Assembly (NCBI GenBank): GCA_016792845.1
Contig: JAEUKH010000018.1
Coordinates: 138,984-202,983, forward strand
DNA: 64,000 nucleotides
DNA from: Myxococcales bacterium
GTDB lineage: Bacteria; Myxococcota_A; Polyangia; Polyangiales; Ga0077539
Direction: 5' to 3'
Shown: piece after piece, positions 549 to 52,648 of the stretch
Numbering within the stretch: position 1 is the stretch's first letter
How the letters are laid out: every line of letters starts with the position of its first letter
Made by a program: the position numbers and the translations under genes
Notes under the pieces: generated by a model
What the model was told of the DNA's origin: nothing
The model's input: the letters and a program-made list of their open reading frames with translations, nothing else
Database searches by the model: none

Positions 549-1125
549 CCTGAGCACCATGCGCCCACACCCTTCGCCCACTCACCGCGCGGCCTGCCTC
601 GCCCTCGCGCTCTGCCTCAGCGCCTGCGGCGGCGCCCGCGGATACAGCAGCGGCGGCGACGACGCCTCCTCCCGCGACGACGCGTCGACCCAAGACCTCG
701 GCGGCCTCGACGCGGGCCTCGTGACACCTCCCGATGACCTCGGGCGCCCGCCCGCTGACACGGGCAACGTCACACCGCCCGCTGACACCGGCAACGTCAC
801 ACCGCCCACCGACACCGGCAACGTCACACCGCCCGCTGACACCGGCAACGTCACCCCGCCCACCGACACGGGCAACGTCACACCGCCCGCTGACACGGGC
901 AACGTCACCCCCCTCGACGCGGGCACGATGCCCGCGATCTGCCCCTCATCGTGCACCACCTCGACGGCGTGCGAGCCGTGCCGCGGGCCGAGCGACCCGC
1001 CGGGCTCAAACTACTGCTGCGTGAGCGGACTCTGCCTCTACATGCAGGGCGTCTGCGGCAGCGTGCCGACCGACGTCGCGCTGCCCACAGACCTCAGCGC
1101 CGACGTGGGCGACCTGGGGCTCTGA
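514..1125 (+). CDS. Exported lipoprotein with 11-aa tandem repeats and a Cys-rich C-terminus
   Basis: Signal peptide with lipobox LSAC. About six copies of [A/T]DTGNVTPP. C-terminal segment with 8 Cys. Confidence 0.5.
   Translation: MPPPRAPSREADLSTMRPHPSPTHRAACLALALCLSACGGARGYSSGGDDASSRDDASTQDLGGLDAGLVTPPDDLGRPPADTGNVTPPADTGNVTPPTDTGNVTPPADTGNVTPPTDTGNVTPPADTGNVTPLDAGTMPAICPSSCTTSTACEPCRGPSDPPGSNYCCVSGLCLYMQGVCGSVPTDVALPTDLSADVGDLGL
757..917 (+). repeat. 33-bp tandem repeat (about 5-6 copies) inside the lipoprotein gene
   Basis: ccgc(t/c)gacac(g/c)ggcaacgtcacaccgcc repeated head-to-tail, encoding PPADTGNVTPP / PPTDTGNVTPP. Confidence 0.8.
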
Positions 1126-4933: not shown

Positions 4934-6301
<1,368 letters not shown>

Positions 6302-6386
6302 CTGTGCGGCGCGGAGGGTAGAGCCTTTTCGCCCGCGCCGAAAGACCTCTCTTGCACCCGCTTTCGACCGGTCGCAGGCTCACCCC

Positions 6387-7271
6387 GTGAGCTTCTCAAC
6401 GCCCCTCATTTCGGTCGAAGCGTTGTCTACCCTGGCCGCCTCACCGCGGCTCCGGTTGATCGACCTCCGGTGGCATCTCAACGGCCCGAGCGGCGCCGAT
6501 TTGTACGCCCGCGGCCACCTCGACGGGGCCGTCTTTGTCGACCTCGAAGCCGCCCTCACGGCCCCCGTGGGCCCCGGGCGACACCCCATCGCCAGCCGCG
6601 CCCAGTTTGAGCGGGCCATGCGCGCGGCGGGCGTCTCGAACGACACGACGGTGGTGGTCTACGACGACGCCGGCGGCAGCGTCGCGTCTCGGCTCTGGTG
6701 GCTCTTGCGATACTACGGGCACACCGAGGTCGCGGTGCTCGACGGCGGCCTCGCCCGCTACGAGGCCCTCGGCGGCGCGCTCAGCACCCGCGCCACGGCG
6801 CCCGAGCCCGGCAGCTTCGTGGCGAAGCCCGGGGCCATGCCCGTGGTCTCGGCCCTCACCGTCGAGGCTCGGGCCGCCGAGCCCGAGGGGGCGCTCCTCC
6901 TCGACGCCCGCGCGCCCGAGCGGTACCGCGGCGAGGTCGAACCCGTCGACGCCCGGGCGGGGCACATCCCCTCGGCCCGCAACGCCTTCTGGCAGTGGCA
7001 CCTCGACGGCGCGGTGTTTCGCAGCCGAGAGGCCCTCGCGGCCCACTTCGCCGCCCTCGGGGTCACCCCCTCGCGCGAGGTGATCGCCTACTGCGGCAGC
7101 GGCGTCACCGCCTCACAGCTCATCTTGGCCCTCACCTACGCAATGCCCTCCCTCACCGTCTCGCTCTACGAAGGCAGCTGGAGCGACTGGTGCCGCGACC
7201 CCTCGCGCCCCATCGCCACCGGCGAGGCCCCGGGGCAGCTCTGGCCATCAAGCCCATCGCCCCGCTGTTGA
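6387..7271 (+). CDS. Tandem-rhodanese sulfurtransferase (thiosulfate/3-mercaptopyruvate type)
   Basis: Two rhodanese modules. Active-site loop CGSGVTAS near the C-terminus. Confidence 0.75.
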   Translation: MSFSTPLISVEALSTLAASPRLRLIDLRWHLNGPSGADLYARGHLDGAVFVDLEAALTAPVGPGRHPIASRAQFERAMRAAGVSNDTTVVVYDDAGGSVASRLWWLLRYYGHTEVAVLDGGLARYEALGGALSTRATAPEPGSFVAKPGAMPVVSALTVEARAAEPEGALLLDARAPERYRGEVEPVDARAGHIPSARNAFWQWHLDGAVFRSREALAAHFAALGVTPSREVIAYCGSGVTASQLILALTYAMPSLTVSLYEGSWSDWCRDPSRPIATGEAPGQLWPSSPSPRC

Positions 7272-7555
7272 ACGGTGTTCAACACGCCCCTCGCATCGCC
7301 TTGTTGAACAGTGTTCAACACGCCCCCCATCGGCGCCACAACCACACTCGCAGCGCTTCGTTGAGCGGCGCTCAACACGATCACCGCGGAGAGGCGGCAC
7401 GCTGTTGAACAGCGCTCAACAGCGAGGCCCGATGACGCTTCGGCGCCCGCGGAGTGTGCGGCGGTCGCGCGACCGGCGGCCCTCACGGGTCGGGGGTCAC
7501 ACGCAGACGCTGTAGCGATTCTCTGGGGCGAGGAGGCTGTTGAACAGTGTTCAAC
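7267..7555. repeat. Array of five 17-bp palindromes GTTGAAC-N3-GTTCAAC in a convergent intergenic region
   Basis: Copies at about 7267, 7303, 7360 (GTTGAGCGGCGCTCAAC), 7404 and 7539. Spacing is irregular (34-126 bp). Confidence 0.85.
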
Positions 7556-7576
7556 ACGGCGGGGCGCCGAGGGCGC

Positions 7577-8668
7577 TCAGAGCACGTCGTCGCGCTTCGC
7601 GGCGGTGAGGGCGTCGATGGCCTTCTTGATGTCCTGGGCCTTGTCACGCGGCATCACGAGGAGCGCGTCGGGGGTGTCGACGACGACGAAGTCTTTCACC
7701 CCGACGAGGGCGACGACCTTGCCGGCGGGCGCCACCACCACGTTGCCCGAGGCGTCTGCGAGGATGGCGTTGCCGCGGTCGACGCGCACCACGTTGCCCG
7801 CGGCGTCTTTGGCCCCGAGCTCCCACGAGGCTTGCCAGCTGCCGACGTCGTTCCACCCGCAATCGACGGGCACGACGGCGACCTCGGCAACCTTCTCCAT
7901 GACGCCGTAGTCGATCGAGATGTTGGGCAGTTGCGCGTATTTCGCGGCCACAGTCTCGGCCTCTCGGCCCTCCCTCGCCGCGGCATCGAAGCCGTCGATG
8001 GCCTCGGCCACGGTGGGCAGGAGGGCCTTCACCGCGTCGCGCATCACGTCGGCGCGAAACACGAAGATCCCAGCGTTCCACAAATGGCTGCCCCCCGCGA
8101 CGAACTGCGCCGCGCGGGCCGCGTCGGGCTTCTCGACGAAGGCCGCGACCTTCTTCACCCCGGCCGCCGCGCCCTCGACGGCGTCGCCCACCCGGAGGTA
8201 GCCGTAGCCCGTCTCGGGCCGCGTAGGCTTGATGCCCAGGGTCACGATCGAGCCCGCGCGGGCCACCTCGACGGCGGTCTTGAGCGCCGCCACAAACGCG
8301 CCCTCGTCGACGATGAACGCGTCGGCCGCGAGCACCACCACCACGGCCTCGGGGTCGCGCCGCTGGATCACCGCCGTCGCCCAGGCCACACACGGCGCGG
8401 TGTTGCGACCCACGGGCTCAAGCAACACGTTCTCGGCCGGAAGGTCGGGCAAAGCCGACGCCGTCGCCGCCGCGAGGTCAGCCCGGGTCACCACCAGCGT
8501 GCGGTGCCGCGGAGAGAGCCCCGACACCCGACGCGCCGTGGCCGTCAAGAGCGGCGTCGTACCATCGGCCCCGAGCGGCAAAAACTGCTTCGGACGCGCC
8601 CGGCGTGACTGCGGCCAGAACCGCGTGCCCGAGCCCCCCGCCATGATGACCGTGAAGACCTCTCCCAT
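7577..8668 (-). CDS. manC: Mannose-1-phosphate guanylyltransferase
   Basis: MGEVFTVIMAGGSGTRFWP nucleotidyltransferase N-terminus. About 364 aa. Confidence 0.8.
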   Translation of the reverse strand: MGEVFTVIMAGGSGTRFWPQSRRARPKQFLPLGADGTTPLLTATARRVSGLSPRHRTLVVTRADLAAATASALPDLPAENVLLEPVGRNTAPCVAWATAVIQRRDPEAVVVVLAADAFIVDEGAFVAALKTAVEVARAGSIVTLGIKPTRPETGYGYLRVGDAVEGAAAGVKKVAAFVEKPDAARAAQFVAGGSHLWNAGIFVFRADVMRDAVKALLPTVAEAIDGFDAAAREGREAETVAAKYAQLPNISIDYGVMEKVAEVAVVPVDCGWNDVGSWQASWELGAKDAAGNVVRVDRGNAILADASGNVVVAPAGKVVALVGVKDFVVVDTPDALLVMPRDKAQDIKKAIDALTAAKRDDVL

Positions 8669-8761
8669 CGCCTTTGCCCTCGTGTGCGTTCTTTCTGCGC
8701 CGACGCGCCGAAGCGCAGTACCACAGCCGTCGGGCCGCGCGACACGTCTGTCAGTCAACCC

Positions 8762-8779
8762 TGTCAACGCGTTGACAGA
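8762..8779. promoter_or_regulatory. 18-bp perfect palindrome CTGTCAACGCGTTGACAG in the divergent manC / PDZ-protein promoter region
   Basis: Perfect inverted repeat, flanked by TGTCAGTCAAC. It lies between the manC start (8668) and the 8839 start. Confidence 0.5.
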
Positions 8780-8838: not shown

Positions 8839-10773
8839 TTGATGGTGACCGTCGCCGCCCGCCGCTCGCGCTTGCTCCTCGTTGGTGCCCTGCTCTTGGG
8901 GGCGTGTGAGACGCAGCCCACCCACGAGGTGTTGTCACTCACCGACCTCACGCCCCGGGCCCTTGAGGTCGGCGAGCGGGTGGTGCTCACCGGCGCGGGG
9001 CTGCCGCAAGCGCAAGACATCCACCGCATTCGGCTGCGCTTCAGCGGCACCGTCGCGCGCCCCGGCGCGGCCAGCTGCGGTCGCCCGGTGGTGCTCAACG
9101 TGGTCGACCCGCCCGACGAGGCGCAGCTCACCGACCACCTCACCGGGCAGAGCCGCGCGGCGACCTATGCCGAGAGCGCGCTCCACACGGTGCGCGTCGA
9201 CGGGCCCAATCGGCTTGAATTCGTGCTCACCGCGGCGATGCTCGACACCCTCTCGCGGTGCCCCGAGGCGAGCGAGGCGCAGAGCGACGCCCCCACCCAC
9301 GCGACGCTGAGCCTCAGCGGGGCGCGGGGCGGCGTGAGCCTCCAGATCGAGACCGCCCAGGGCACCGTGCTCTCGGCCGCCAGGGCGCTCCGCGGACCCA
9401 CCGTCGAGCTCATCCCCCATCGGGCCGCGCTGGCCGAGGAGCTCGCCGCGCGCACCACCGCCGAGCGCGCCCTCGACACCTTGGGCCTCCAGCTCGCAGC
9501 GGCGCACCCCACCGAAGGGGGGCTCCAGATCGAGCGCGTCAGACCCGGCTCTGCGGCCGACGAAGCGGGCCTCTCAGACGGCGACGTGATGGTGCGCCTC
9601 GATGGCGTGACCCTCCTCGGAGTCGGCGATTTTCTCCCCGCTCCGTCGCGCGAAGTCTCGGTGCTCACGGTGCGCCGCGGAGACGCCCTCGACGACCGCG
9701 CGATGCGGGTCTCGAGCCTCGCCCCGACGGCACCCGCCGACCTCGTCGCGACGGGCGTCTTGCTCCTCGTGGCGATGGCCTGGCTCCTCGTGGCCCGCGG
9801 CGGCGGCCCGGGCTCGGTGCGCTGGATCGTGCGTCGCCTCGGCAGCCCCGAGCGCGACCCCAGCACCCATCACAGCGCCCTCGACGACGCGCGCCGCGGC
9901 TGGCGTTGGAGCTGGCTCGTCGGCGACCTCCGGCGTCAGCTCTTGGGCCTCGCGGTGTTCGGCAGCACGCTGCTCTGCACGGTGCTCGGGCCCTTGTTCT
10001 TGGGGCGCGACCTCGACCTCGCGGCGGCCCACGGTTTTGTCGCTTTGGGCTCGCTGAGCCTCTCGGCCTTCTTGCTTCGTCAGCGGGGTCTCGCCCTCCA
10101 TCACACGGCCCGCGCACTCATCGACCGGCTCCCGAACGAGCTCCTGGCCCTGCTCCCGGTGGCGGTGGGCGTGATGGCCGCGGGCTCGCTGCACGTGCAA
10201 GACCTCGTCGACGCCCAGGGCGGCGCCCCGTGGCGCTTTACGGGCCTCGGCGCCCCCTGGACGGCCCTCCTCGTCGTCGGCTGGTGGGCCTCTCTGGTGC
10301 GTTCGACGGAGCCCGGCGTGGCCCTCGACCTCCGGGCCTGGGCGGGCACCGTCTCGATGCTCTGGGTGCGCGCGATGCTCGGCGTGGTGGTGTTTCTCGG
10401 CGCTTGGCGGCTCCCCGGCGTCGGGGCGATGACCCAAGACGCCCGCGCCTCGCTCAGCATGCTCGGGGCCCTGTGGCTGTCGCTCAAAGCCTGGGCCCTG
10501 GTGCTCTCGGCGCTCGCCGCCCGACGCGCCTTCGCCCGGGTGAGCGCCCCGCGCTTCAGCCGCTTCGTGCTCCGCGCGTGGCTGCCCATGTCGCTCGTCG
10601 CCGCGGCCCTCAGCGCCGCCCAGGTGCTCAGCACCCCCCGCCTCGGGAGCGTCACCCGCGACGTGCTCACCCGCTCGGCGAGTTGGGCCACCGTGGCCAC
10701 CCTGGCGATGGCCCTCGGGTGGATCACCTGGCGCCGCCTGCGCCCCCGCGCCACCTTCGGCTACGCCCCCTGA
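8839..10773 (+). CDS. PDZ domain-containing polytopic membrane protein
   Basis: N-terminal lipoprotein-like signal and a PDZ-like segment (GLQIERVRPGSAADEAGLSDGDVMVRLDGV), then at least 8 predicted TM helices. Confidence 0.5.
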   Translation: MMVTVAARRSRLLLVGALLLGACETQPTHEVLSLTDLTPRALEVGERVVLTGAGLPQAQDIHRIRLRFSGTVARPGAASCGRPVVLNVVDPPDEAQLTDHLTGQSRAATYAESALHTVRVDGPNRLEFVLTAAMLDTLSRCPEASEAQSDAPTHATLSLSGARGGVSLQIETAQGTVLSAARALRGPTVELIPHRAALAEELAARTTAERALDTLGLQLAAAHPTEGGLQIERVRPGSAADEAGLSDGDVMVRLDGVTLLGVGDFLPAPSREVSVLTVRRGDALDDRAMRVSSLAPTAPADLVATGVLLLVAMAWLLVARGGGPGSVRWIVRRLGSPERDPSTHHSALDDARRGWRWSWLVGDLRRQLLGLAVFGSTLLCTVLGPLFLGRDLDLAAAHGFVALGSLSLSAFLLRQRGLALHHTARALIDRLPNELLALLPVAVGVMAAGSLHVQDLVDAQGGAPWRFTGLGAPWTALLVVGWWASLVRSTEPGVALDLRAWAGTVSMLWVRAMLGVVVFLGAWRLPGVGAMTQDARASLSMLGALWLSLKAWALVLSALAARRAFARVSAPRFSRFVLRAWLPMSLVAAALSAAQVLSTPRLGSVTRDVLTRSASWATVATLAMALGWITWRRLRPRATFGYAP

Positions 10774-11003
10774 GTTGAACACTGTTCAACACGCGCCTGG
10801 CCGCGTCTTCGCGTCACCCTCGTCGCCCAGATGCGCGCCGTTCGAGGCGGCCTCGGCGCCGCAAGTTGAACACTGTTCAACACGCCCGCGCGCCGCGCTG
10901 ACGCCCCGCCGACGGCATCGCCGGACGCCTGCCCAGGCGCCGCACCGCGCCCCGAGGCCCGAACGATGAACGCTGTTCGGCGCCGTGTTGAACAGTGATC
11001 AAC
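10774..11003. repeat. Array of three or four GTTGAAC-N3-GTTCAAC palindromes in a convergent intergenic region
   Basis: Copies at about 10774, 10865 and 10987 (GTTGAACAGTGATCAAC), plus a degenerate copy near 10965 (GATGAACGCTGTTCGG). Confidence 0.85.
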
Positions 11004-22289: not shown

Positions 22290-23234
22290 ATGAAAGCCCT
22301 CGAGCTCTCTGACCGCGAGCGCAGCCTCTGCCTCTCGGCGATGGCCACGCTCATGCGCCACGACGGCGCCGTACACCCGAAGGAGCGCGAGCTCTTCGAC
22401 GCCGTCTCTCACGCCCTCGGGCGCGCGACGCCCTTCGACGATGTTGACACTGTCAACATTGACACGATCGCGGCCGAGGTGACAGACCCCGAGAAGCGCG
22501 AGCGGCTCGTGCAGCTCTTGATCGTGACGGCGCTATTTGACGGCGACGTCACGGCGGGCGAGCTGGCGTTTTTGCGGGCGTGGTCAGAGGCCCTCTCGGT
22601 CGACGAGCCGCGCATGGGCACGCTCTCACGTTGGGCCCACGGGCTGTCGTCGCTCACGCAGTTTGACCTCGGGTTTCGCTCGGCGATGCTCGACCGGATC
22701 CGGCGAGACACCTGGGCCCGCGACGGCGTCTCGGGGCTGCGTCACCTTTACGGCAGCCTCTTCGGGATGGGGGCCGAAGACCCGGGCCTCGCGGCGCGCT
22801 TTGACGCGCTCGGGGCGCTGCCCGAGGGCACCTTGGGGCGGGTCTACCACGAGCATTTGCGGGCCCGCGGGTTCAGCTTTCCGGGCGAGCGCGGGGTCAC
22901 GATGCCGAAGCAGCTGGTGGCCCACGATCTCTCGCATGTGTTGGGCGGGTATGACACCGACGCGGGGGGCGAGACCGAGGTGATCGCCTTTGTGGCGGGC
23001 TTCATCTCGACCGACCCGTTCTGGTACGTGTTCGCGATTTTGATGCACATGCACCTCGGCACGCGGGTGTTCGGCCTCGACCCCACGGCCCACCTCGCCG
23101 CCGACGCCCACAAGATGGTGGCGGCCCTGCGCCGCGGGATGCGCGTCAATCGCGACCTCTACCACGACTGGGACTACTGGCCCGCCTTCGCCGAGCCCCT
23201 CGAGGCCGTGAGGGCTTCGCTCAACATCGTGTAG
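22290..23234 (+). CDS. Hypothetical protein with a TerB-like N-terminal domain
   Basis: Helical N-terminus resembling the TerB / DjlA-N fold. It carries a GTTGAC-type palindrome at 22441 in frame (DVDTVNID). Confidence 0.35.
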   Translation: MKALELSDRERSLCLSAMATLMRHDGAVHPKERELFDAVSHALGRATPFDDVDTVNIDTIAAEVTDPEKRERLVQLLIVTALFDGDVTAGELAFLRAWSEALSVDEPRMGTLSRWAHGLSSLTQFDLGFRSAMLDRIRRDTWARDGVSGLRHLYGSLFGMGAEDPGLAARFDALGALPEGTLGRVYHEHLRARGFSFPGERGVTMPKQLVAHDLSHVLGGYDTDAGGETEVIAFVAGFISTDPFWYVFAILMHMHLGTRVFGLDPTAHLAADAHKMVAALRRGMRVNRDLYHDWDYWPAFAEPLEAVRASLNIV

Positions 23235-34441: not shown

Positions 34442-35809
34442 ATGGAAGTTGAATGCGTTTCTTGTTCAACGCGCGCGCCGCAGGGCACGAAGCGTTGCCC
34501 CAAGTGCTTGAGGACTCGACTCTTGCCAGTGCCCGAAGCCCCCGCTCGGGGGGGCGAAAAGGGGCTCGCTCGACCCCTGCGCCTTGGGGTGCTCTTTGTG
34601 AGCCTCGGGCTCGGCGCGGGCGGGGCCGTCTGGCTCTCAAAATACAGAAAATCAAGCGACAATCGGGGTGTCGTCGCAGCCCCTGTGAGCGCGGCGCAGC
34701 TCGGCCTTGGAGATTCGTTGAGCCCCGAAGCGGCCGCTCTCACGCGGGCGGCCTCGACACCATCGGCGCGGCTCCGGGTGCTGGGCGAGCGGCTTCAGGC
34801 GCGACGGCGCGCGCGGTGGGTGTCTGGGGGTGATGGGGTGCCTCCGCCCCGCAGCCCGGCTCAGGTGTGGGAGGCCTTGGCGCGCCCCGAGACCGCGGTG
34901 ACGGAGCTCGAAGTGGCGCGTCTCGCGGCGGCGCTCTTGCGCGGGTGCGGCGACAGCGCCGAGGTCGCGCTCCGCGAGCGCCCGCGGCGACGTGAACACA
35001 GCCGTAGCGACGTGGCGGCCCTCGGCAGCTGGCTGGTGCGTTCGGGCGACCAGCTCCTCGACCTCGGGAGCATGATGGTGCTCGGCGCCAGCGCGGTGCC
35101 GCACACGGTGTTGAACAGTGTTCAACTCGCGGCGGCGCTCGACGCGGCAGCGGCGATCGAGGTCTCGACGGCGGCCGAGGGTCGGGCCGCGGCTTTAGGC
35201 CGGGCCGAGTCGGCGGTGAACGGTTGGCGCGACGGCTGGCTCCCGCTGGCTGCGCGGGCCACGGTTTGGGTCAACGTGGGGGCGAGCAGCGGGCTCGACC
35301 ACGCCGCCCGCGACCTCTCGGCGGCGATCGCGCTTTCAGACGACGCGGGCCTCCACCTCGCACGGGCGCGGGTGCTCCTGGGGCAGCGTCGCCTCGTCGA
35401 GGTCGCCTTCGAGACGCAGCGCGCGTTGCAGATGGCGCCGGGCTTCACCGAGGCCGCGATGGCGTCGATGCTCTTACATCGGGTCTACGCTCAGCTCGAC
35501 GGCGGCGCGCCTTCGGGGTGTGAGGCGCTCCATCTCGCGCACCAGCCCACGGCCGACCTCGCCTCGGTGCTCTGCGCCGAGGGCCAGTCTGAGGCCTCCC
35601 GGGCGCAGGCCGCGACGCAGCTCGTGGCGCGCTCGACAGACCCGTTGGTGTTGGCCTACGCGGGGCGGGCGCTCGGCCCTTCGGCGGCCCCGACGCTGCG
35701 GCAAAAGACGACCCTCGCGGCCGCGCGGCGAGAGCTCGTGGGCTGGCTCGAAGCGGCCGGTGAGAGCGCGCTGTTGGCGGCCCTGGTGCCCCAAGACGGT
35801 GGCCTGTGA
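34442..35809 (+). CDS. Zinc-ribbon plus TM hypothetical protein
   Basis: N-terminal C-x2-C-x10-C-x2-C, one TM, and a large helical domain. An in-frame palindrome at 35109 encodes LNSVQ. Confidence 0.45.
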   Translation: MEVECVSCSTRAPQGTKRCPKCLRTRLLPVPEAPARGGEKGLARPLRLGVLFVSLGLGAGGAVWLSKYRKSSDNRGVVAAPVSAAQLGLGDSLSPEAAALTRAASTPSARLRVLGERLQARRRARWVSGGDGVPPPRSPAQVWEALARPETAVTELEVARLAAALLRGCGDSAEVALRERPRRREHSRSDVAALGSWLVRSGDQLLDLGSMMVLGASAVPHTVLNSVQLAAALDAAAAIEVSTAAEGRAAALGRAESAVNGWRDGWLPLAARATVWVNVGASSGLDHAARDLSAAIALSDDAGLHLARARVLLGQRRLVEVAFETQRALQMAPGFTEAAMASMLLHRVYAQLDGGAPSGCEALHLAHQPTADLASVLCAEGQSEASRAQAATQLVARSTDPLVLAYAGRALGPSAAPTLRQKTTLAAARRELVGWLEAAGESALLAALVPQDGGL

Positions 35810-36210: not shown

Positions 36211-37380
36211 TCAGGGCTCGCGCTGCACGAACAGCGACCACACCAGCGCGTCTTGGGTGTCTGTGGTGAAGACCGTGGGGCCCTCGCTCGGGCAGAGCCT
36301 GAGCCCGGCGACGTTCTCGTGCATGGGCACCTCGGTCTCGCCCCCAGAGGCCCGATCGTAGCGGGCCAGGCGCGCCCTGAGACCGACCGCGTGACGCACA
36401 AACCCCAAGCGCACGCAGCCGCGCCCGAGCTGCCGCGGGTCGACCACCGCGAGCACCCGCGAGAACGCGCGGTCGCCCGTCTGCACCACCGCGTCGTGCA
36501 CCGGCGGGAGCGTCTGCCCTCGCGACGCCTGCTGCTCGACGATCGAGAACTCCAACGGGAGGCCCGTCGTAAACCACGCGCCCGGCACCACCTCGGGCTC
36601 GACTCGCGGGTGAACCGGCTCGTCGTCGCGCTGTTGAACACTGTTCAACAGGGCGCGGTAAGTGACCGCGGTCGAAGGCACGAGCCGCGCAGCCCCGGGC
36701 CGGAGAGGCAGCGCGAGCCCCCCCACCGAGGGCCCCTCAAGGCTCGCCGCGCGGTCGAGCGCAGCCCCTTCGCCGAGGCCCACAAGCCCCTCGGGCGAGA
36801 AGGTGCCGCGGTTGAGCGCCGCAACACCGCCGACCTCGGCGCTCGGACCGCGGAGCACCGTCACGATCGCCGTGCCGCCGCGCACCGGCGGGGGCAGCAT
36901 CGGCGAGAGGTTGCGGGTCTCGAGCACCATCACGAGCTCGGCCGGCGCGTGGGTGCACCACTGGAGCTGCCCCGTGACGCCCATGGGTTCGCGGGCCACC
37001 ACCAAGGCAGGAGGCATCACGCTCACACGCTCGGCGCCCTCGGCGCGGTGTTGCAGCCCGAGGCGCTCGATGCGGTGATACCCGTGAACCGAGACCACCA
37101 CGGCCGCGCAGGTCTCGGCCCCGAGGCTCAGGGTGTACGACGCGTGACCCCGCGCGCCCGCGTCGGCTTCGAGCACCGGGAGCGTCACCTCGACGGGCTC
37201 GCGCATCCCCAAAGCCCGGGCCACCGCCACCTCGGTGTTGTGGACCCGCCGCGCGAGCGCCTCGGCCACCGGCGGCGCGTTTTCGGGAGGGTGCCGCGCC
37301 CGCGTCGCCGTCGCGTACATCAGCGCCACGATGGCCGAAAAGAACGCGCTGAGCACCCACAACACCGCCCGCAGAGACAT
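36211..37380 (-). CDS. Membrane-anchored hypothetical protein
   Basis: N-terminal TM. An in-frame palindrome at 36633 encodes LLNSVQQ. Confidence 0.4.
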   Translation of the reverse strand: MSLRAVLWVLSAFFSAIVALMYATATRARHPPENAPPVAEALARRVHNTEVAVARALGMREPVEVTLPVLEADAGARGHASYTLSLGAETCAAVVVSVHGYHRIERLGLQHRAEGAERVSVMPPALVVAREPMGVTGQLQWCTHAPAELVMVLETRNLSPMLPPPVRGGTAIVTVLRGPSAEVGGVAALNRGTFSPEGLVGLGEGAALDRAASLEGPSVGGLALPLRPGAARLVPSTAVTYRALLNSVQQRDDEPVHPRVEPEVVPGAWFTTGLPLEFSIVEQQASRGQTLPPVHDAVVQTGDRAFSRVLAVVDPRQLGRGCVRLGFVRHAVGLRARLARYDRASGGETEVPMHENVAGLRLCPSEGPTVFTTDTQDALVWSLFVQREP

Positions 37381-37522: not shown

Positions 37523-38758
37523 ATGCGAGCGCGCGCTACGGCTTTGATGACTCTCTCGACGGCCCTCTGGGTCGCCTCGTCGCCCGCAGCGGCTCAGCTC
37601 ACGGGCGGGCGTATCGGCGGCTCCAACTGGGGCGCCGCGCGGCCCTCGCGCACCGTCCAGGCGAGGCCCTCGGTGATGCCGTCGTTCGGTGCGCCGACGC
37701 CGAGGCCGGCCCCCGCCCCCGCGCCGACGGTGCAGCTGCCGGGGCTCCCGGCGGTGGCTCCGAACCCCGCCGCGATGCCGGGGATCGCCGTCGTCACGCC
37801 GCGGGTCGAGGTGCCAGCGGCGCCGCTCCCTCGCCTCGCGGTGAGCGCGTATGTCGCCCCGCCTCCGCACCCGGGGTATGTGCTCTACGCTCCCGGGGGT
37901 CGCACCCTTGAGCCCGACGAGGCGCAAGCGACGCACCCCCTCTGGCCGATGCACGACACCTACGGCCCGCTGAACCTCCTGGGCGGCGCGGTGGTCTTTG
38001 TGGGTCTCTTCGGCGCGCTCGGGGTCGGCGCCTGGGTGCTCACCCGGGCTCAGGGCGCAGCGCCGTCGCCCTCGCCGCCGTCCATTCCCCACGCTCCTGC
38101 GGGGCTCCCGGTGTCGCTCGGCCGGGTCTCGCTCGCGTTCGACGCCTCGCTCCGCGCGCACCTCCAGGCTGAGCTCGCGCGCTTCGCCGCGCAGGCGTCG
38201 TCGTCGTCACCTGAGGCCCTCGAGCGCACGACGCGGCAGGCCATCGACCTCCTCGGCAGCGCCCTCGGGGCGGCGCGGGCCGCCGCGGTGGCGAGCGCGC
38301 AGAGCCGCGTCGACGAGGCCGAGCGGCGCTTCACCGGGCTCGCCGATTCGCTGCGGCAGCGGTACACCGTCGAGAGCATCACCGAGGCCCGACGGGTGGT
38401 GATGCCGGGCCTCTCGCCCCTCGCCGACGAGGGTCAAGGCTTCGTGGTGGTGTCGCTCCTCGTCGCTGTTGAAACCCCGGATCTTGAAGCCCCCGCAGAG
38501 TTGAACACTGTTCAACTTGGGGCGTGGTTGCGCGCGCTGCGACCGCGGGCCGGGGGGCTCCTCGCGACGGAGCTCATCTGGTCACCGGCCGACCCTGGCG
38601 ATCTCATGTCATCGGCCGAGATGCTGCACCTCTACCCCGAGCTTCGCCCGCTCGAAGGGGCGACGCTCGGGCGCGTGGTGTGCGGGCACTGCCGGGCGGT
38701 GTTCGCCGCCGAGTTGGGGCGCTGTCAGCGTTGCGGCGCGGCGCCCGCCCAAGCCTGA
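37523..38758 (+). CDS. DUF1517-like exported protein with a C-terminal zinc ribbon
   Basis: Signal peptide then GGRIGGSNWG. C-terminal C-x2-C-x12-C-x2-C. An in-frame palindrome at 38500 encodes ELNTVQL. Confidence 0.4.
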   Translation: MRARATALMTLSTALWVASSPAAAQLTGGRIGGSNWGAARPSRTVQARPSVMPSFGAPTPRPAPAPAPTVQLPGLPAVAPNPAAMPGIAVVTPRVEVPAAPLPRLAVSAYVAPPPHPGYVLYAPGGRTLEPDEAQATHPLWPMHDTYGPLNLLGGAVVFVGLFGALGVGAWVLTRAQGAAPSPSPPSIPHAPAGLPVSLGRVSLAFDASLRAHLQAELARFAAQASSSSPEALERTTRQAIDLLGSALGAARAAAVASAQSRVDEAERRFTGLADSLRQRYTVESITEARRVVMPGLSPLADEGQGFVVVSLLVAVETPDLEAPAELNTVQLGAWLRALRPRAGGLLATELIWSPADPGDLMSSAEMLHLYPELRPLEGATLGRVVCGHCRAVFAAELGRCQRCGAAPAQA

Positions 38759-45998: not shown

Positions 45999-47831
45999 AT
46001 GAAGCGTCGGTCAATTGCCGCCACCGTGCGGACAGGATCAGTGTACGCTGTTGCGCTCGCGACAGCTCTCGGGGCCCGTTCGGGTCTCGCCCAACCCATC
46101 ACCCCGACGGCGACGCAGACGAGCCCTGCGACCCCCGCGCAGACGGGCACCGACCCGGGCACGACCTCGGGCGCCACGACGCCCGCGGGCGGCTCGAACA
46201 GCGCCCAGGGCTTCGCGCCTCCGAACCTCGGGCAGACGGCCCCGCAAGACCCCGGCCCGCAGCCGCAGGCGGGCGCTCCGGCGGTTCAGCCTGTGCGTAT
46301 GGAGGCCCCGGTGGCCCGCACGGCGCCGGCGACGTCGGCCCGCCCGTCGACGCCCCACGATTTCATCGACACCCGCATCACCTGGACGTTCGGTGACGAC
46401 GACATCTTGACCTCGACGGGTCAGCGGGTGCCCGTCTCGCCGCTCCCGCGGATCGCCGACCGACAGCAGTACCAGCTCTTCTTCGACGCGCTGAACTCGC
46501 GCTTCGCGGGCCGTGAGAACCTCACGCACCTCGCGATGTACGCGCGGGCTCCGGGCTTCATCGACCGGCTGACCACCGAGGCGGGCTTGATCCTCCGTGT
46601 CGACCTCGGCCAGTTGACCACGGGCTCGGGCAACTTGAACCAGGCCTTCTACGACGCGGGCACGTTCTTGCGTGTGGCCTACGGGCTGAACCCTTCGCGG
46701 GCCTCGGACCAGGTGTCGCTGACCTTCTTCCCCTTCGACACTGACCGCTTTCGGCTCGGGTATCTTTGGGATCTCTCATGGGGCGGCAACGACGTCTTCC
46801 CGCGCCGCGTGGGCCCCGCCCCGGGCCTGAAGCTTCAGCTCGACATCGGCGGGCTGCAGCTCTGGACGGGCTTCAAGACCGCCGGCATCGTGGTGCCCCT
46901 TGAGGTGGTCACGCAGTCGCGCGACATCGAGATCGTGCGCGTCGAAGAGACCCAGTATGCGGCCCTCGCGGGCGGCGCGTACCGCTTCAACGAGAACGTC
47001 AGGTTTGACGTCTCGGGCGGGTACTTTCAGCAGGGTCGCTTCGACTTCCCCGGGGTGCGCGGGCAACAGGTCTACCTCGTCGGCGGCAGCGCGCGGCTGG
47101 TGTTCTCGCAGGGCCTCAGCGCGGGCCAGTCGCTCGACATGCGGCTCTACCGCAACGACCCGACGACGCCCTTCCAGGCCTTCACCCCCGAGACCTACAC
47201 CCCCGGCCGCGTCTTGTGGAACGTGTCTCTCGAAGGCACCGCCATCGGTCAGAACCTGGCCGACATCAACTTCCCCGGGCGTACGGCGATCCAGACGGGC
47301 TTCGCGGGGGCGCTCCAAGCCCGCCTCAAGGCTGGCTACTTCGGCGCGGGCTTCACGGCCCTCTACCGCGACGTGCCCTTCCTCCTCCGCAACGTGCCGA
47401 GCTTCATCCCCTTCCAGACCTTGCCCACCGACGCGACGGTCGACCCTGAGTTCTTCCTCGCCGCGCAGGTCGACTACGCCTTCGTGCGTCAGCATCTCAT
47501 CCCGAGCTTGATCGTGGGCATGCAGCTCCCGGCCTCGTTCTCGAGCTCGGTGCGCGAGGGCTCCCTCGAATCCGAGCGCACGCTCGTGATTCGCCGCGCG
47601 GGCAACTTCTCGATCCTCCCGCCGGGCGAGGGCCGCGTACCGATCATCTCGGCCCGCGCCTCGATGCGCTGGGATCTCTCGACCGTCCTCGCGGGCATCT
47701 TCTGGGTGCAGTACGTGCTCGACCAGAACGCCACGCTCCTCCAGGTCGACTCGTCGGGTACGCGCCAGGTGCGTATCTTCCAAGCGGCCAATCAGCTCGG
47801 CTTCGGCATCACCGCGCAAGCCCGCTTCTGA
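45999..47831 (+). CDS. Outer-membrane beta-barrel protein
   Basis: Signal peptide, alternating amphipathic strands, and a C-terminal ...GFGITAQARF with terminal Phe. Confidence 0.5.
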   Translation: MKRRSIAATVRTGSVYAVALATALGARSGLAQPITPTATQTSPATPAQTGTDPGTTSGATTPAGGSNSAQGFAPPNLGQTAPQDPGPQPQAGAPAVQPVRMEAPVARTAPATSARPSTPHDFIDTRITWTFGDDDILTSTGQRVPVSPLPRIADRQQYQLFFDALNSRFAGRENLTHLAMYARAPGFIDRLTTEAGLILRVDLGQLTTGSGNLNQAFYDAGTFLRVAYGLNPSRASDQVSLTFFPFDTDRFRLGYLWDLSWGGNDVFPRRVGPAPGLKLQLDIGGLQLWTGFKTAGIVVPLEVVTQSRDIEIVRVEETQYAALAGGAYRFNENVRFDVSGGYFQQGRFDFPGVRGQQVYLVGGSARLVFSQGLSAGQSLDMRLYRNDPTTPFQAFTPETYTPGRVLWNVSLEGTAIGQNLADINFPGRTAIQTGFAGALQARLKAGYFGAGFTALYRDVPFLLRNVPSFIPFQTLPTDATVDPEFFLAAQVDYAFVRQHLIPSLIVGMQLPASFSSSVREGSLESERTLVIRRAGNFSILPPGEGRVPIISARASMRWDLSTVLAGIFWVQYVLDQNATLLQVDSSGTRQVRIFQAANQLGFGITAQARF

Positions 47832-48399
47832 GCGGCAGTTCAGCCAAACCCAGCGCCGCGTCTTCGAGCACCTCTGCCGCGTCGCCGACGCCCTCCATCG
47901 AGAGCGCCGCGACGCCGTGGCAGTGCGCCCAGAGCGCCATCGCGCGCCCCCGCACCTGCCCCGTCGAGGCCAGCCCATCAACCGCCGCGAGCGCCACCAC
48001 GAAGCGCTCGAACGCGTCGTGGGCCCGGTTCGGCGCACGCCCCGCGGGCGCGAACATCACCGCGTAGAGACCCCGATGGAGCCGCGCGAAGCCCACGTAC
48101 GCCGCGCACACCGCGACGAGCTGGGCGCGGGCCGCGACGGCCTCGGCGCGGGCGCCATCGAGCCGCTCGACGAGGCGCGCGAAGCCCTCCTCTCGCACCG
48201 CCCCGAGGAGCCCCTCACGGTCAATGAAGTGGTGGTACGCCGCGGCCGGAGCGACCCCCGCCTCGCGGCACACCGCGCGCAGCGACAGCGCCGCCGAGGG
48301 GCCCGATTCGAGCATCGCCAGGGCCGTGCCCATGAGGGTCGCGCGGAGGTCGCCGTGGTGTTGCCCCACCCTCCGCGGGGGGCGCTTTCGCTTCGCCAT
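47809..48399 (-). CDS. TetR/AcrR-family transcriptional regulator
   Basis: N-terminal HTH LRAVCREAGVAPAAAYHHF. 196 aa. Confidence 0.8.
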   Translation of the reverse strand: MAKRKRPPRRVGQHHGDLRATLMGTALAMLESGPSAALSLRAVCREAGVAPAAAYHHFIDREGLLGAVREEGFARLVERLDGARAEAVAARAQLVAVCAAYVGFARLHRGLYAVMFAPAGRAPNRAHDAFERFVVALAAVDGLASTGQVRGRAMALWAHCHGVAALSMEGVGDAAEVLEDAALGLAELPLRSGLAR

Positions 48400-48445: not shown

Positions 48446-48606
48446 GTTGAACAGCGTTCAACAGCGCCGAGGGCATCGAAGGGGCCGACCCGCGCTCAGC
48501 CCGGCCGAGGGTTGTCTGTCATGTTGAACAGCGTTCAACGGTGAACCCTGCGCGTGTTGAACAGTGTTCAACTTCGCCCCTGTGTGCGTGTTGAGCGGTG
48601 TTCAAC
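48446..48606. repeat. Array of four GTTGAAC-N3-GTTCAAC palindromes directly upstream of the TetR gene
   Basis: Copies at about 48446, 48523, 48556 and 48590 (GTTGAGCGGTGTTCAAC). Flanking GTGAACC motifs at about 48438 and 48541. Confidence 0.85.
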
Positions 48607-49423: not shown

Positions 49424-50731
49424 GTGAGTCTTCCGCTGGTTGTTGCGATCCAGAAGGCGCTCGGCGAGGCGCCCGGCCACCCTGCCCTCGTCGACGATGC
49501 GCTGCGGGCGGTGTTCAGCTTCCAGCTCCACGCGCCGCAGCTGACCGACGACCCGCGCGCGCGGGCCGCGCCGCACGCGGTGCTCCACGAGATGCTCACC
49601 CACCTCGCCGCGGGCCCGTGGCACGCGCGCTTTGTCGCCCTTGAGTTGAACAGTGTTCAACACGAGGCCCTGGTCATCGCGGGCTTCGCCGCCGCGTCGC
49701 TGCCCGAGGTCGAGTGGCTCATCAAGCAGAACTGGCGGGTCACCGAGGGGCTCCTCGCGGCCCGCGACGACGCCCCCGAAGCGCTGCTGGCGCTGGCCGA
49801 GCGGCTGCGCGGCAAGCCCGCCGAGAACCCCGCACTCTTGACGGCGCTGGGTCGCCTCGCGGTGATCGCCGACGGCCTCGAAGACGCGCTCACGTTGGCG
49901 AATTGTAGCCTCGCCGCGACGGCCGAGCGCGCCTTCACGGCCCTCGGCCCGACCCGCACCGCGCGGGTGGTCGAGCGGGTGCTCGCGCGCTTCGACCACA
50001 CGCCCGAGTTTCGCAGCCAGAGCCTCATCCCGATGCTCGAACGGGTCGGGCCCTGGCTCAACGCCCGCGCCCTCGACGCCGTGCTGACCCGGGCCGAGCT
50101 CCTCTCGAACACCTACCTCGCATGGGAAGATTGGGGCCAACGCCTCGGCCAGAACGCCGACACGCGCTTCGTCCTCGGGGCCGTCGCGGCCCGCATCGCC
50201 CAGCACGACGACCCGGGGCTCCGCGACGGGTGGCGCCGGGCCGCGCGCATGTTGCTCGACCGCGCGACGCACCGCGGGTTTGTGCCCTCGCCCGACGACG
50301 ACGTGTTCATCGACCCCGCGGGCGCGGCGCGCGGCAACGACGACGTGTGGATGGCCACCCGGAGGCTCCTCAACGCCATCGGCCCGACCCGCGCCGAGGC
50401 CGTGCTGACGGCAGCCTTCGCGGGCTACCGCGCCCCCTGCGAGGCCCTCCGCTTCGCCGTGAGCGGCATGTCGCCGGGCTACCTCTCTCGGGTCGCCGAG
50501 GCCATGGTGGCCGTGCGCGACGACCCTGCCTTCTCAGACCTCCTGGCCATCAGCGACCTCAAGCCCTTCGGCCCCGGGTTCGTCGACGCGCTCATCGAGG
50601 CCCTGCGCGACCTCCGTCCGCGCCGCGCCTTTGTGAAGCACCTTGAGCGCAACCTCAGCGTCGGCGACTACAACCGCCTCTCGATCTGGCTTGAGACGCG
50701 CCCGCCGCCCAAACGCCCCCGCGCGCCGTGA
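49424..50731 (+). CDS. Hypothetical helical-repeat protein
   Basis: 435-aa ORF with ordinary composition. An in-frame palindrome at 49644 encodes ELNSVQH. Confidence 0.4.
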   Translation: MSLPLVVAIQKALGEAPGHPALVDDALRAVFSFQLHAPQLTDDPRARAAPHAVLHEMLTHLAAGPWHARFVALELNSVQHEALVIAGFAAASLPEVEWLIKQNWRVTEGLLAARDDAPEALLALAERLRGKPAENPALLTALGRLAVIADGLEDALTLANCSLAATAERAFTALGPTRTARVVERVLARFDHTPEFRSQSLIPMLERVGPWLNARALDAVLTRAELLSNTYLAWEDWGQRLGQNADTRFVLGAVAARIAQHDDPGLRDGWRRAARMLLDRATHRGFVPSPDDDVFIDPAGAARGNDDVWMATRRLLNAIGPTRAEAVLTAAFAGYRAPCEALRFAVSGMSPGYLSRVAEAMVAVRDDPAFSDLLAISDLKPFGPGFVDALIEALRDLRPRRAFVKHLERNLSVGDYNRLSIWLETRPPPKRPRAP

Positions 50732-50794
50732 GCGCCCTGTTGAACAGTGTTCAACAGTGGGTGAAATTCGGGGGCGCAGCGGGTGCGGCGCGGG

Positions 50795-52600
<1,806 letters not shown>

Positions 52601-52648
52601 GCGATGTACTCCTCGGCGCGCGGTTGCCCCCAACGACGGGTCAAACGC

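What the first reader, a model, noticed from the sequence alone, without database searches (positions are those of the whole stretch)
7267..7555. Five-copy palindrome array in the convergent intergenic region between the rhodanese gene and manC
Five GTTGAAC-N3-GTTCAAC copies sit within 290 bp at 34-126 bp spacing. The region is convergent, so it is not an obvious promoter. The short arms with a 3-nt spacer would make poor rho-independent terminators. The array looks like a protein-loading or nucleation site, centromere-like or nucleoid-associated, rather than a transcription signal.
Basis: seen in the sequence. Interest (0 to 1): 0.6.

Follow-up and report, generated by a model that had tools for sequence, protein, structure and literature searches.

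The report
Dispersed copies of a TetR operator palindrome
The five palindromes between the rhodanese and manC genes are one cluster of a repeat family scattered through this uncultured myxobacterial genome, and the repeated word is the conserved binding site of a TetR-type repressor encoded 40 kb away, so a regulator's operator has multiplied much as REP elements do.

Summary
Three exact and two variant copies of GTTGAAC-N3-GTTCAAC lie at 7267-7555 between convergent rhodanese and manC genes. The array is not unique: the 64-kb window holds 17 copies against 0.07 expected, in eight places. The full word is (cg)TGTTGAACA-S-TGTTCAACA(cg).

In five loci from other lineages the same palindrome lies 9-70 bp upstream of orthologues of the window's TetR gene (47809-48399, minus strand). 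That gene has a four-copy array directly upstream of it. The palindrome is therefore this TetR subfamily's operator.

The dispersed copies are placed like REP elements:
- Nine of 13 intergenic copies are in 3'-3' spacers and none are in the 11 divergent spacers.
- Two copies supply a gene's TGA stop codon.
- Four copies lie inside ORFs, all read as LN(S/T)VQ.

Both intragenic copies that could be tested replace homologous residues without any indel, so they arose in place and were not inserted. About 47 kb sampled from relatives has no copy. The hairpins are weak (-4 to -11 kcal/mol) and have no U tract.

Best reading: these are lineage-specific, amplified binding sites for the TetR dimer that act on DNA at gene ends, not at promoters. 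What binding achieves (roadblock, decoy or landmark) is inferred only. "Centromere-like" is not.

The parts
7267..7283 (.). Palindrome copy 1 of the flagged array, GTTGAACGGTGTTCAAC. It contains the rhodanese TGA stop codon (7269-7271).
7303..7319 (.). Palindrome copy 2, an exact consensus (TGTTGAACAGTGTTCAACA).
   Evidence: shares its left flank with copy 3
7360..7376 (.). Palindrome copy 3, the symmetric variant GTTGAGCG-G-CGCTCAAC.
7404..7420 (.). Palindrome copy 4, a hybrid of one consensus arm and one variant arm (GTTGAACAGCGCTCAAC).
7539..7555 (.). Palindrome copy 5, an exact consensus, 21 nt beyond the manC stop codon.
10774..11003 (.). Second array, with copies at 10774, 10865 and 10987, in the convergent spacer between the PDZ/membrane protein gene (8839-10773, plus strand; its TGA lies immediately before the first copy) and the rhomboid gene (stop at 11019, minus strand).
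35110..35126 (.). Intragenic copy in ORF 34442-35809 (plus strand), read as VLNSVQ.
36633..36649 (.). Intragenic copy in ORF 36211-37380 (minus strand), read as LLNSVQ.
38500..38516 (.). Intragenic copy in the DUF1517 protein gene 37523-38758 (plus strand), read as ELNTVQ. It aligns without a gap to a variable loop of the homologues, so it arose by substitution and not by insertion.
48446..48606 (.). Four-copy array (48446, 48523, 48556, 48590) directly upstream of the TetR gene. The nearest copy is centred 55 bp from the ATG at 48399. The last copy contains the TGA stop (48602-48604) of the small secreted-protein ORF 48602-48898 (minus strand).
47809..48399 (-). TetR-family regulator gene (TetR_N plus TetR_C_33/WHG domains, 196 aa), the presumed binder of the palindrome.
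   Evidence: Pfam; orthologue loci carry the same palindrome upstream; the DNA-reading head is conserved
49645..49661 (.). Intragenic copy in the 435-aa ORF 49424-50731 (plus strand), read as ELNSVQ. It aligns without a gap to DDTGSG of a 52%-identical homologue, so it arose by substitution.
50739..50755 (.). Single copy in the 63-bp convergent spacer, 7 nt after the stop of ORF 49424-50731 and 39 nt after the stop of the DnaK paralogue gene (50795-52600, minus strand).
6387..7271 (+). Rhodanese gene flanking the array. It is absent from this position in the relative L004, where manC abuts PGM/PMM.
7577..8668 (-). manC (mannose-1-phosphate guanylyltransferase), the gene flanking the array on the other side.

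Best explanation
The five-copy array is one cluster of a lineage-specific, dispersed family of 19-23-bp perfect palindromes, (cg)TGTTGAACA-S-TGTTCAACA(cg). This word is the operator of the TetR/WHG-type repressor encoded at 47809-48399. Each copy is a full two-half-site operator for one TetR dimer, so the 290-bp spacer can load up to five dimers at the 3' ends of two convergent genes.

Shown by the analysis:
- The family exists and is strongly enriched over chance.
- Its sequence matches a conserved operator.
- Its placement resembles that of REP elements: 3'-3' spacers, stop-codon overlap, absence from divergent promoter spacers.
- The arrays grew partly by local duplication.
- The two intragenic copies that could be tested arose by substitution.

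Inferred only:
- The TetR binds all copies in vivo.
- The sites act on DNA where binding cannot repress initiation. They could block read-through transcription between convergent genes, buffer or titrate the repressor, or serve as chromosomal landmarks.
- Copies that would silence promoters have been purged by selection.
For: 1. There are 17 copies in 64 kb against 0.07 expected. This is the top 12-14-mer of the window. AT-rich perfect palindromes number 43 against 1.1 in shuffles.
2. The same palindrome (0-2 mismatches) lies 9-70 bp upstream of the TetR start in 5 of 5 loci whose TetR shares the VGQHHGDLR arm and the ...YHHF recognition helix: L023, L047, L079 (two copies), L080 and L212 (two copies). 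No other copy was found in those 1-21-kb loci.
3. The more divergent P0125 has a co-varied palindrome, TCTGAAC-ATC-GTTCAGA.
4. In the window, four copies sit directly upstream of that TetR gene.
5. The positions that vary among dispersed copies (arm positions 6 and 8, A/G) are the same ones that vary among the true operators, and the other arm positions are invariant in both sets.
6. Nine of 13 intergenic copies are in convergent spacers, none are in the 11 divergent spacers, and the remaining four are upstream of the TetR gene.
7. The stems are AT-rich in a 71% GC genome, fold at only -4.3 to -10.9 kcal/mol and have no U tract. That fits recognition of DNA by a protein better than an RNA structure.
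8. Arm-to-arm covariation is not above shuffles.
9. Intragenic copies replace variable residues without indels. This is how binding sites of SlmA, RefZ or ParB type come to lie inside genes, and it is not how inserted elements behave.
10. TetR-family proteins with dispersed chromosomal sites have precedents in SlmA and RefZ (PMC6657595).
Against: - No binding data exist, so the identity of the binder rests on comparative genomics only.
- In the orthologue loci the TetR is an ordinary local regulator of a divergent MBL-fold hydrolase and GNAT pair, with one or two operators. Nothing in the protein sequence marks the window's copy as special.
- Seventeen high-affinity sites per 64 kb would need an unusually abundant TetR if the density holds genome-wide.
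- A roadblock function would make the four intragenic copies harmful.
- Within the species, palindromes are not more conserved than their surroundings (3 SNPs in 255 bp against about 3 per kb).
- Placement, stop-codon overlap and arrays are also what REP elements show (PMC3733652), and those features need no dedicated repressor.
- Only 64 kb of the genome could be examined.
Confidence: 0.5

Rival explanations
1. This is a REP-like selfish or structural repeat that does not depend on the TetR. A short palindrome spreads by a dedicated or host mechanism (a RAYT-type transposase, or replication or repair at hairpins) and survives where it does no harm, at 3' ends and in tolerant codons. Any function is that of an RNA or DNA hairpin, for example protecting mRNA 3' ends or pausing transcription. 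On this view the match to the TetR operator is secondary: the operator seeded the family, or the TetR merely tolerates the copies.
For: - Placement between convergent or co-directional ORFs and absence from divergent spacers.
- Copies that supply stop codons.
- In-frame intragenic copies.
- Clusters that grew by local duplication.
- High sequence homogeneity.
- A second palindromic word in the same window.
- All of these are described properties of REP families (PMC3733652).
- The copy density, about 1 per 3.8 kb, seems to me to be in the range reported for REPs in REP-rich genomes. That comparison is from memory and I did not check it.
Against: - There is no GTAG or CGTC tag. CGT-G occurs at one end in 11 of 17 copies, and its absence from both ends of any copy is not significant.
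- The unit is a perfect, AT-rich, 17-23-bp palindrome with weak hairpins, not the 20-40-bp GC-rich imperfect stem of typical REPs.
- Both intragenic copies that could be tested are substitutions without length change, which transposition does not produce.
- No covariation above shuffles.
- No transposase was seen among the window genes that have a Pfam result (precomputed tables, Pfam scan). Roughly 19-37 kb and 51-64 kb of the window were not scanned.
- A chance identity with the operator of a TetR encoded in the same 64 kb, with an array at its own promoter, is improbable.
Confidence: 0.27
2. The word accumulates by an uptake-sequence-like molecular drive. Mutations that create it are preferentially transmitted, for example through biased DNA uptake and recombination, as with USS and DUS. 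Copies therefore appear by substitution inside genes at tolerant positions and pile up in spacers.
For: - Intragenic copies arose by substitution at poorly conserved residues.
- All four are in one reading frame. Uptake sequences likewise show reading-frame biases and sit preferentially at poorly conserved amino acids (PMC2817400).
- The word is lineage-specific.
- At two polymorphic palindrome positions (10998 and 48532) one allele is the exact consensus.
Against: - Only 4 of 17 copies are in ORFs although ORFs make up about 89% of the window. Uptake sequences are 35-65% intragenic (PMC2817400).
- The known uptake sequences I recall are oriented, non-palindromic 9-12-mers and do not form arrays of 3-5 copies. 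That is from memory and was not checked here.
- This model does not explain the identity with the TetR operator.
- No competence receptor can be examined.
Confidence: 0.07
3. This is a classical TetR regulon, in which the copies control transcription initiation of neighbouring genes such as manC and the rhodanese gene.
For: The word is a bona fide TetR operator in five other lineages, and it contains a TTGAAC half that resembles a -35 hexamer.
Against: The flagged array and the 10.8-kb and 50.7-kb sites are in 3'-3' spacers. None of the 11 divergent spacers has a copy. No promoter-like sites were found. The neighbouring genes have no common function.
Confidence: 0.05
4. The array is a centromere-like or partition site, serving the ParA-like ATPase at the window start.
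For: Arrays of short palindromes are typical of plasmid centromeres. A ParA/Soj-like fragment lies at 3-548 (translation).
Against: The word differs from parS (TGTTNCACGTGNAACA), as read directly from the sequence. No ParB gene was recognised next to the ParA-like fragment. The adjacent ORF at about 561-1125 encodes a repeat-bearing lipoprotein. The copies are spread over more than 43 kb, some inside genes. There is no GC-skew switch. The word is already accounted for as a TetR operator.
Confidence: 0.03

Closest known systems
REP / BIME elements (repetitive extragenic palindromes, including the GTAG- and CGTC-tagged families; PMC3733652)
   Same: It is a short palindrome in many copies. It forms clusters in spacers between convergent or co-directional genes and is absent from divergent promoter spacers. 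Its termini supply stop codons to flanking ORFs. A few copies lie in frame inside genes. More than one palindromic word occurs in the same genome.
   Different: It is a perfect, AT-rich, 17-23-bp palindrome with no GTAG or CGTC tag. Its hairpins are weak. The intragenic copies that could be tested were made by substitution and not by insertion. No RAYT gene is in view. The word is identical to a specific repressor's operator.
TetR-family operators (autoregulated TetR gene with a divergent target gene)
   Same: It is a 17-19-bp two-half-site palindrome. It lies 9-70 bp upstream of the TetR start in five orthologue loci and in the window's own TetR locus. The operator co-varies with the DNA-reading head.
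   Different: Thirteen of the 17 copies in the window are far from the TetR gene, at gene 3' ends or inside genes, and are arranged in arrays of three to five.
SlmA-SBS and RefZ-RBM: TetR-family proteins that use dispersed chromosomal palindromes as landmarks (PMC6657595)
   Same: A TetR-family protein is paired with multiple specific palindromic sites spread along the chromosome. In the window these include sites inside genes that evolved in place.
   Different: There is no detectable sequence relationship to SlmA or RefZ beyond the shared family. The site density is far higher, with arrays. No link to FtsZ or to any chromosome region could be tested.
DNA uptake sequences (USS / DUS; PMC2817400)
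   Same: A lineage-specific DNA word is over-represented. Copies in genes arose by substitution, in a preferred reading frame and at poorly conserved residues.
   Different: The word is palindromic, mostly intergenic and arrayed, and it matches a repressor operator.

Membership tests
REP / REPIN-RAYT elements | Short palindromic unit in high copy number | tested here: inconclusive
   The window holds 17 copies of a 17-23-bp unit in 64 kb. The genome-wide count could not be obtained because the source MAG is not in the searchable genome collection.
REP / REPIN-RAYT elements | Located between convergent or unidirectional ORFs, rarely between divergent ones, often touching stop codons | tested here: met
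   Nine copies are in convergent spacers, four in one tandem spacer and none in the 11 divergent spacers. TGA stop codons lie inside copies at 7269-7271 and 48602-48604.
REP / REPIN-RAYT elements | Unpaired GTAG or CGTC tag at one end | tested here: not met
   The flank consensus is c-(g/c)-T. CGT occurs at one end in 11 of 17 copies. No GTAG or CGTC tag is present.
REP / REPIN-RAYT elements | New copies arise by insertion (transposition) | tested here: not met
   Both intragenic copies that could be tested align without a gap to homologous residues. There are no indels among the same-species contigs.
REP / REPIN-RAYT elements | Cognate RAYT (IS200/IS605-like Y1 transposase) gene flanked by the repeats | not testable with these tools
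   No transposase appears among the window genes that have a Pfam result, but roughly 19-37 kb and 51-64 kb were not scanned and only 64 kb of the genome is available.
TetR-family operator | Palindrome of about 15-30 bp close upstream of the TetR gene or its divergent target | tested here: met
   The copy at 48446-48462 is centred 55 bp upstream of the ATG at 48399. The flagged array at 7267-7555 does not meet this positional criterion itself.
TetR-family operator | The site is conserved upstream of orthologous regulators and co-varies with the DNA-reading head | tested here: met
   All five VGQHHGDLR/YHHF-type loci carry it (L023, L047, L079, L080, L212). The divergent P0125 locus has a changed palindrome.
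TetR-family operator | Specific binding by the regulator, relieved by a ligand | not testable with these tools
   This needs EMSA or footprinting.
SlmA / RefZ-type chromosomal landmark system | The protein belongs to the SlmA or RefZ lineage or shares their effector surface | tested here: not met
   The closest solved structure is 3on2, an uncharacterised TetR. Neither SlmA nor RefZ is among the hits at E<=1e-3.
SlmA / RefZ-type chromosomal landmark system | Sites confined to or excluded from a chromosome region | not testable with these tools
   Only one 64-kb window is available, and it shows no GC-skew switch.
DNA uptake sequences (USS/DUS) | Copies in genes at poorly conserved residues, in preferred frames, made by substitution | tested here: met
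DNA uptake sequences (USS/DUS) | A large share (35-65%) of copies lies inside ORFs, and the word is oriented and non-palindromic | tested here: not met
   Four of 17 copies are in ORFs although ORFs make up about 89% of the window, and the word is a perfect palindrome. The 35-65% range is from PMC2817400. That known uptake words are oriented and non-palindromic is from memory.
parS / plasmid centromere | Match to the parS consensus, or adjacency to a parAB or parA-adaptor operon | tested here: not met
   The word differs from TGTTNCACGTGNAACA (read directly from the sequence). The ParA-like fragment at 3-548 is followed by a repeat-bearing lipoprotein ORF and no ParB gene was recognised there.
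Intrinsic (rho-independent) terminator | GC-rich stem followed by a U tract | tested here: not met
   No hits in 7150-7650. Stems fold at -4.3 to -10.9 kcal/mol and are AT-rich. Terminator-like sites in the window are at shuffle level and none lies in the palindrome-bearing spacers.

The most novel reading that the evidence does not exclude
A TetR-family repressor that arrived with its single operator has been turned into a chromosome-wide DNA-landmark or insulator system in this myxobacterial lineage. Selection or a drive acting on the DNA word creates its operator de novo by point substitution, even inside genes, and stacks it in arrays at the ends of convergent genes. Bound dimers there act as transcriptional roadblocks or domain boundaries. 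That would be a protein-dependent, substitution-born counterpart of REP elements.
Probability: 0.15. Interest if true: 0.8.

Novelty: new variant of a known kind. Interest (0 to 1): 0.5.

Why it matters
Short dispersed palindromes such as REPs are common in bacteria, but how they originate and what recognises them is mostly unsettled. Here the repeated word can be tied to a specific, easily purified DNA-binding protein. At least some copies can be shown to have arisen by substitution and not by insertion.

If the TetR binds all copies, this is a natural case of a local repressor's operator being amplified into a genome-scale site family. It would bear on three questions:
- How REP-like families start.
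- How regulators such as SlmA and RefZ acquired chromosome-wide roles.
- How convergent transcription is insulated in high-GC genomes, which in this window show no excess of intrinsic terminators.

If the TetR does not bind, the result is still a new REP-like family in the Myxococcota. One full-text search found no REP or RAYT paper that mentions this phylum.

Tried and rejected
- **Actinobacterial origin** was my first guess from the GC content. ManC and the other proteins place the window in an uncultured Myxococcales/Polyangiales-related MAG.
- **Known RNA family.** Rfam at gathering threshold finds only tRNA-Val.
- **Folding the whole array** gives z = -4.8 and -5.6. This is trivial, because every copy is complementary to every other.
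- **Hairpin covariation.** The symmetric variant at 7360 looked compensatory, but covariation over 24 sequences equals the shuffle mean.
- **One-sided CGT tag, meaning an oriented element.** Having no copy with CGT on both sides is not significant, with 1.8 expected.
- **Genome collection scan**. The source genome is absent and no Myxococcota representative has many copies. Multi-copy hits in cyanobacteria and Methanococcoides are unrelated families with GGG...CCC extensions.
- **Metagenome scan**. It was capped at 120 loci and returned no other high-GC contig with dispersed arrays.
- **Extending beyond the window.** Exact-protein look-ups for DnaK and the right-edge ORF failed. Same-species Logan contigs all lie inside the window.
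- **MBL/GNAT partner genes of the orthologue TetRs.** None is present in the window.
- **Origin or terminus location.** There is no GC-skew switch.
- **Literature searches for the raw motif** returned only primer noise.
Full report
**Observation**

The flagged region contains five copies of a 17-bp palindrome, starting at 7267, 7303, 7360, 7404 and 7539. Three match GTTGAAC-N3-GTTCAAC exactly. The copy at 7404 has one mismatch. The copy at 7360 has two symmetric mismatches and remains a perfect palindrome (GTTGAGCG-G-CGCTCAAC). Start-to-start spacing is 36, 57, 44 and 135 bp.

Pfam confirms the flanking genes. The rhodanese gene (6387-7271, plus strand) has its TGA stop at 7269-7271, inside the first copy. 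The manC gene (7577-8668, minus strand) has its stop 21 nt beyond the last copy.

Most copies read TGTTGAACA-S-TGTTCAACA (9-bp arms and a one-base centre), often with CGT or ACG outside.

**The array is not unique**

At up to two mismatches the window has 17 copies against 0.07 expected, and 0 of 100 shuffles reached that count. The copies fall in eight places:
- 7267-7555 (five copies)
- 10774-11003 (three copies)
- 35110
- 36633
- 38500
- 48446-48606 (four copies)
- 49645
- 50739

The word is by far the most frequent 12-14-mer of the window. AT-rich perfect palindromes number 43 against 1.1 in shuffles.

**Source and relatives**

ManC is 100% identical to a protein of a MAG labelled Myxococcales bacterium. 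The next relatives are Polyangiales MAGs at 72-76% identity.

Three independent samples of the same species carry a 420-bp segment spanning the array (7201-7620) that is identical to the window. Twelve same-species contigs are 99.7-100% identical to the window with no indels.

Relatives have no copy at up to two mismatches in about 47 kb of sampled sequence (L004, L077 and L210). In L004, manC is followed directly by PGM/PMM and a KGG gene. Relative to that genome, the rhodanese gene and the array are an insertion into a manC-PGM operon.

The source genome is not in the species-representative genome collection. No Myxococcota genome in that collection has many exact copies. The capped metagenome scan also found no other high-GC contig with dispersed arrays.

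**What the word is**

A TetR-family gene (TetR_N plus TetR_C_33/WHG domains; 47809-48399, minus strand) lies immediately downstream of the four-copy array at 48446-48606.

Two single-copy hits from the genome scan sit 35 bp upstream of 43-47%-identical homologues of that TetR (L023, a Myxococcota MAG, and L047, a Pseudomonadota MAG). In both, the palindrome lies between the TetR gene and a divergent MBL-fold hydrolase plus GNAT pair.

Further homologues gave the same picture:
- L080 has one copy, 44 bp upstream.
- L079 has two copies, 9 and 52 bp upstream.
- L212 has two copies, 26 and 70 bp upstream.

All five of these proteins and the window protein share the N-terminal arm R-x-VGQHHGDLR and the recognition helix ending ...YHHF. 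More distant TetRs have YRHF or YRHY instead. The more divergent P0125 (arm ...SYHHGDLR) has a changed palindrome, TCTGAAC-ATC-GTTCAGA.

This is standard phylogenetic footprinting with co-variation, and I take the word to be the operator of this TetR subfamily. The true TetR start is 48399. The shorter 174-aa gene call would delete the invariant HHGDLR arm.

The arm positions that vary among the 17 window copies (positions 6 and 8, A/G) are the same ones that vary among the seven orthologue operators. The remaining arm positions are invariant in both sets.

**Where the copies sit**

I built a GC3-based gene map and checked it against the called genes on same-species contigs. Against that map:

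| Spacer type | Spacers | Total bp | Copies |
|---|---|---|---|
| Convergent | 8 (copies in 3 of them) | 1351 | 9 |
| Divergent | 11 | 1675 | 0 |
| Tandem | 28 | 3730 | 4, all in the one spacer upstream of the TetR gene |

Copies hug gene ends:
- A TGA stop lies inside a copy at 7269-7271 (rhodanese) and at 48602-48604 (a 98-aa secreted protein on the minus strand).
- A stop lies immediately before the copy at 10774.
- A stop lies 7 nt before the copy at 50739.

The remaining four copies lie inside high-GC3 ORFs, and all are read in the same frame as (V/L/E)LN(S/T)VQ. Of the other two frames, one is open and one contains the TGA.

This placement is what is described for REP families: between convergent or unidirectional ORFs, with termini that supply stop codons and some intragenic copies (PMC3733652).

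**How copies arise**

Within arrays, neighbouring units share flanking sequence. For example, CTCGCAxCGC... precedes both 7303 and 7360, and the 33-34-bp units at 48523 and 48556 resemble each other. The arrays therefore grew partly by local duplication.

Two intragenic copies could be compared with homologues:
- In the DUF1517 protein, ELNTVQ occupies the same alignment columns as AVDLPS, TVDLPG or TLDTPS in 15 homologues. The distance between the conserved blocks on either side is unchanged.
- In the 435-aa ORF, ELNSVQ aligns without a gap to DDTGSG of a 52%-identical homologue. The orthologous DNA there is ordinary GC-rich coding sequence.

Both copies were therefore written in place by substitution and not inserted. 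That argues against simple transposition. It fits either selection for a binding site or a drive on the word, as known for uptake sequences (PMC2817400).

Within the species, three SNPs fall in palindromes (255 bp), against about 3 per kb elsewhere. At two of those positions one allele is the exact consensus. The numbers are too small to show a direction.

**What the copies are probably not**

- *Intrinsic terminators or strong RNA hairpins.* There is no U tract, and the stems are AT-rich, folding at -4.3 to -10.9 kcal/mol in a 71% GC genome. Terminator-like sites are at shuffle level and none lies in these spacers. Arm covariation equals the shuffle mean.
- *A known RNA family*.
- *Promoters*.
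- *A centromere.* The word is not parS. No ParB gene was recognised near the ParA-like fragment at 3-548. The copies are spread over more than 43 kb. There is no GC-skew switch.
- *SlmA or RefZ relatives.* The TetR has no detectable sequence relationship to them beyond the shared family.

**Most likely mechanism**

The shown steps are the family itself, its identity with a conserved TetR operator, its REP-like placement, local duplication within arrays, and the substitutional origin of the intragenic copies.

The inferred steps are as follows. The TetR dimer binds every copy, so the flagged spacer can hold up to five dimers. Copies persist only where binding does not shut down a promoter, which would explain why divergent spacers are empty. 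At 3'-3' junctions the bound proteins may block read-through between convergent genes, buffer the free repressor, or mark the chromosome. SlmA and RefZ are precedents for TetR-family proteins with dispersed chromosomal sites (PMC6657595).

I put about 0.5 on "TetR-bound, DNA-level sites". I put about 0.27 on a TetR-independent REP-like element, and small probabilities on an uptake-like drive, a classical regulon or a centromere.

The main unexplained point is how a 17-bp word is written into coding sequence without any length change.

**Novelty and verdict**

This is a real feature and a new variant of known kinds. It behaves like REP elements in placement. It fails two REP criteria, the terminal tag and insertional origin. 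Its sequence is a specific repressor's operator.

Interest is moderate (0.5). The link between a dispersed palindrome family and an identifiable binding protein is unusual and directly testable by EMSA. However, only 64 kb of an uncultured genome could be examined and no function has been shown.

Noticed in passing
window 22441-22459 and 57289-57307; also 1136-1154 and 8761-8778: A second palindromic word has a related half-site. ATGTTGAC-N3-GTCAACAT occurs twice as a perfect 19-mer, both times inside genes and in the same frame ((D/N)VDxVNI). The inverted arrangement GTCAACAT-TGA-ATGTTGAC lies in the convergent spacer at 1136. CTGTCAAC-GC-GTTGACAG lies in the divergent spacer upstream of manC at 8761. 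This may be a second amplified operator.
   Followed up: partly
window ~561-1125 (plus strand), repeats at ~745-900: A lipoprotein-like ORF next to the ParA-like fragment contains about six tandem 27-bp repeats encoding PPADTGNVT. This accounts for the repeated 14-mers GGCAACGTCACACC and CCGCCCGCTGACAC. One same-species contig (L003) ends inside it.
   Followed up: partly
window 4934-8668 compared with L004 10001-12873: In the relative L004, manC, PGM/PMM and a KGG gene are contiguous and co-directional. In the window, the rhodanese gene (opposite strand) and the palindrome array are inserted between manC and PGM/PMM.
   Followed up: partly
window 10998, 48532, 50755: Three of the 91 positions that vary among same-species contigs fall inside palindromes (11.8 per kb against about 3 per kb elsewhere). 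At 10998 and 48532 the alternative allele restores the exact consensus. At 50755 it breaks the palindrome.
   Followed up: partly
L008, L034, L038, L061, L069, L075, L113, L126, L134, L138, L193 (cyanobacteria); L024 242-864 (Methanococcoides vulcani); L097: The same 17-mer core is the centre of unrelated multi-copy repeats elsewhere. GGGTTGAACAsTGTTCAACCC(C/T) recurs in Geminocystis, Microcystaceae and Cyanobacterium genomes. Three copies of GACTGTTGAACAGTGTTCAACT lie within 620 bp in a methanogen. L097, a 43% GC metagenome contig, has 14 matches at up to two mismatches, several containing direct GTTGAACACTG repeats.
   Followed up: no
L007 6366, L028 6369, L041 3868 (Arthrobacter, Dermabacter); L095, L100, L107, L124 and others: The same palindrome occurs as a single site between an MFS transporter gene and what reads, from its translation only (no Pfam run), as an IclR-like regulator gene in actinobacteria. 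It also occurs as three 10-bp-phased half-sites (GTTCAAC-GAC-GTTGAAC-AGT-GTTCAAC) in many 60-67% GC metagenome contigs. Other regulators apparently use the same word.
   Followed up: no
window 50795-53011: A DnaK paralogue (601 aa) is followed by an apparently short GrpE-like ORF (52649-53011). Five independent short-read assemblies (L081-L085) all break at the same point inside this dnaK gene (window position about 51388), which suggests a repeat or strain variation there.
   Followed up: no
window 48520 and 48617: Two same-species short-read contigs (L087, L089) end at or within about 11 bp of palindromes of the array upstream of the TetR gene. This would fit the palindromes breaking de Bruijn assemblies.
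   Followed up: no
window 16780-16798: An isolated perfect palindrome, GGTGTTTC-CGA-GAAACACC, lies inside the M50 peptidase gene. It has parS-like ends (GTGTTTC...GAAACAC) but does not match the parS consensus.
   Followed up: no
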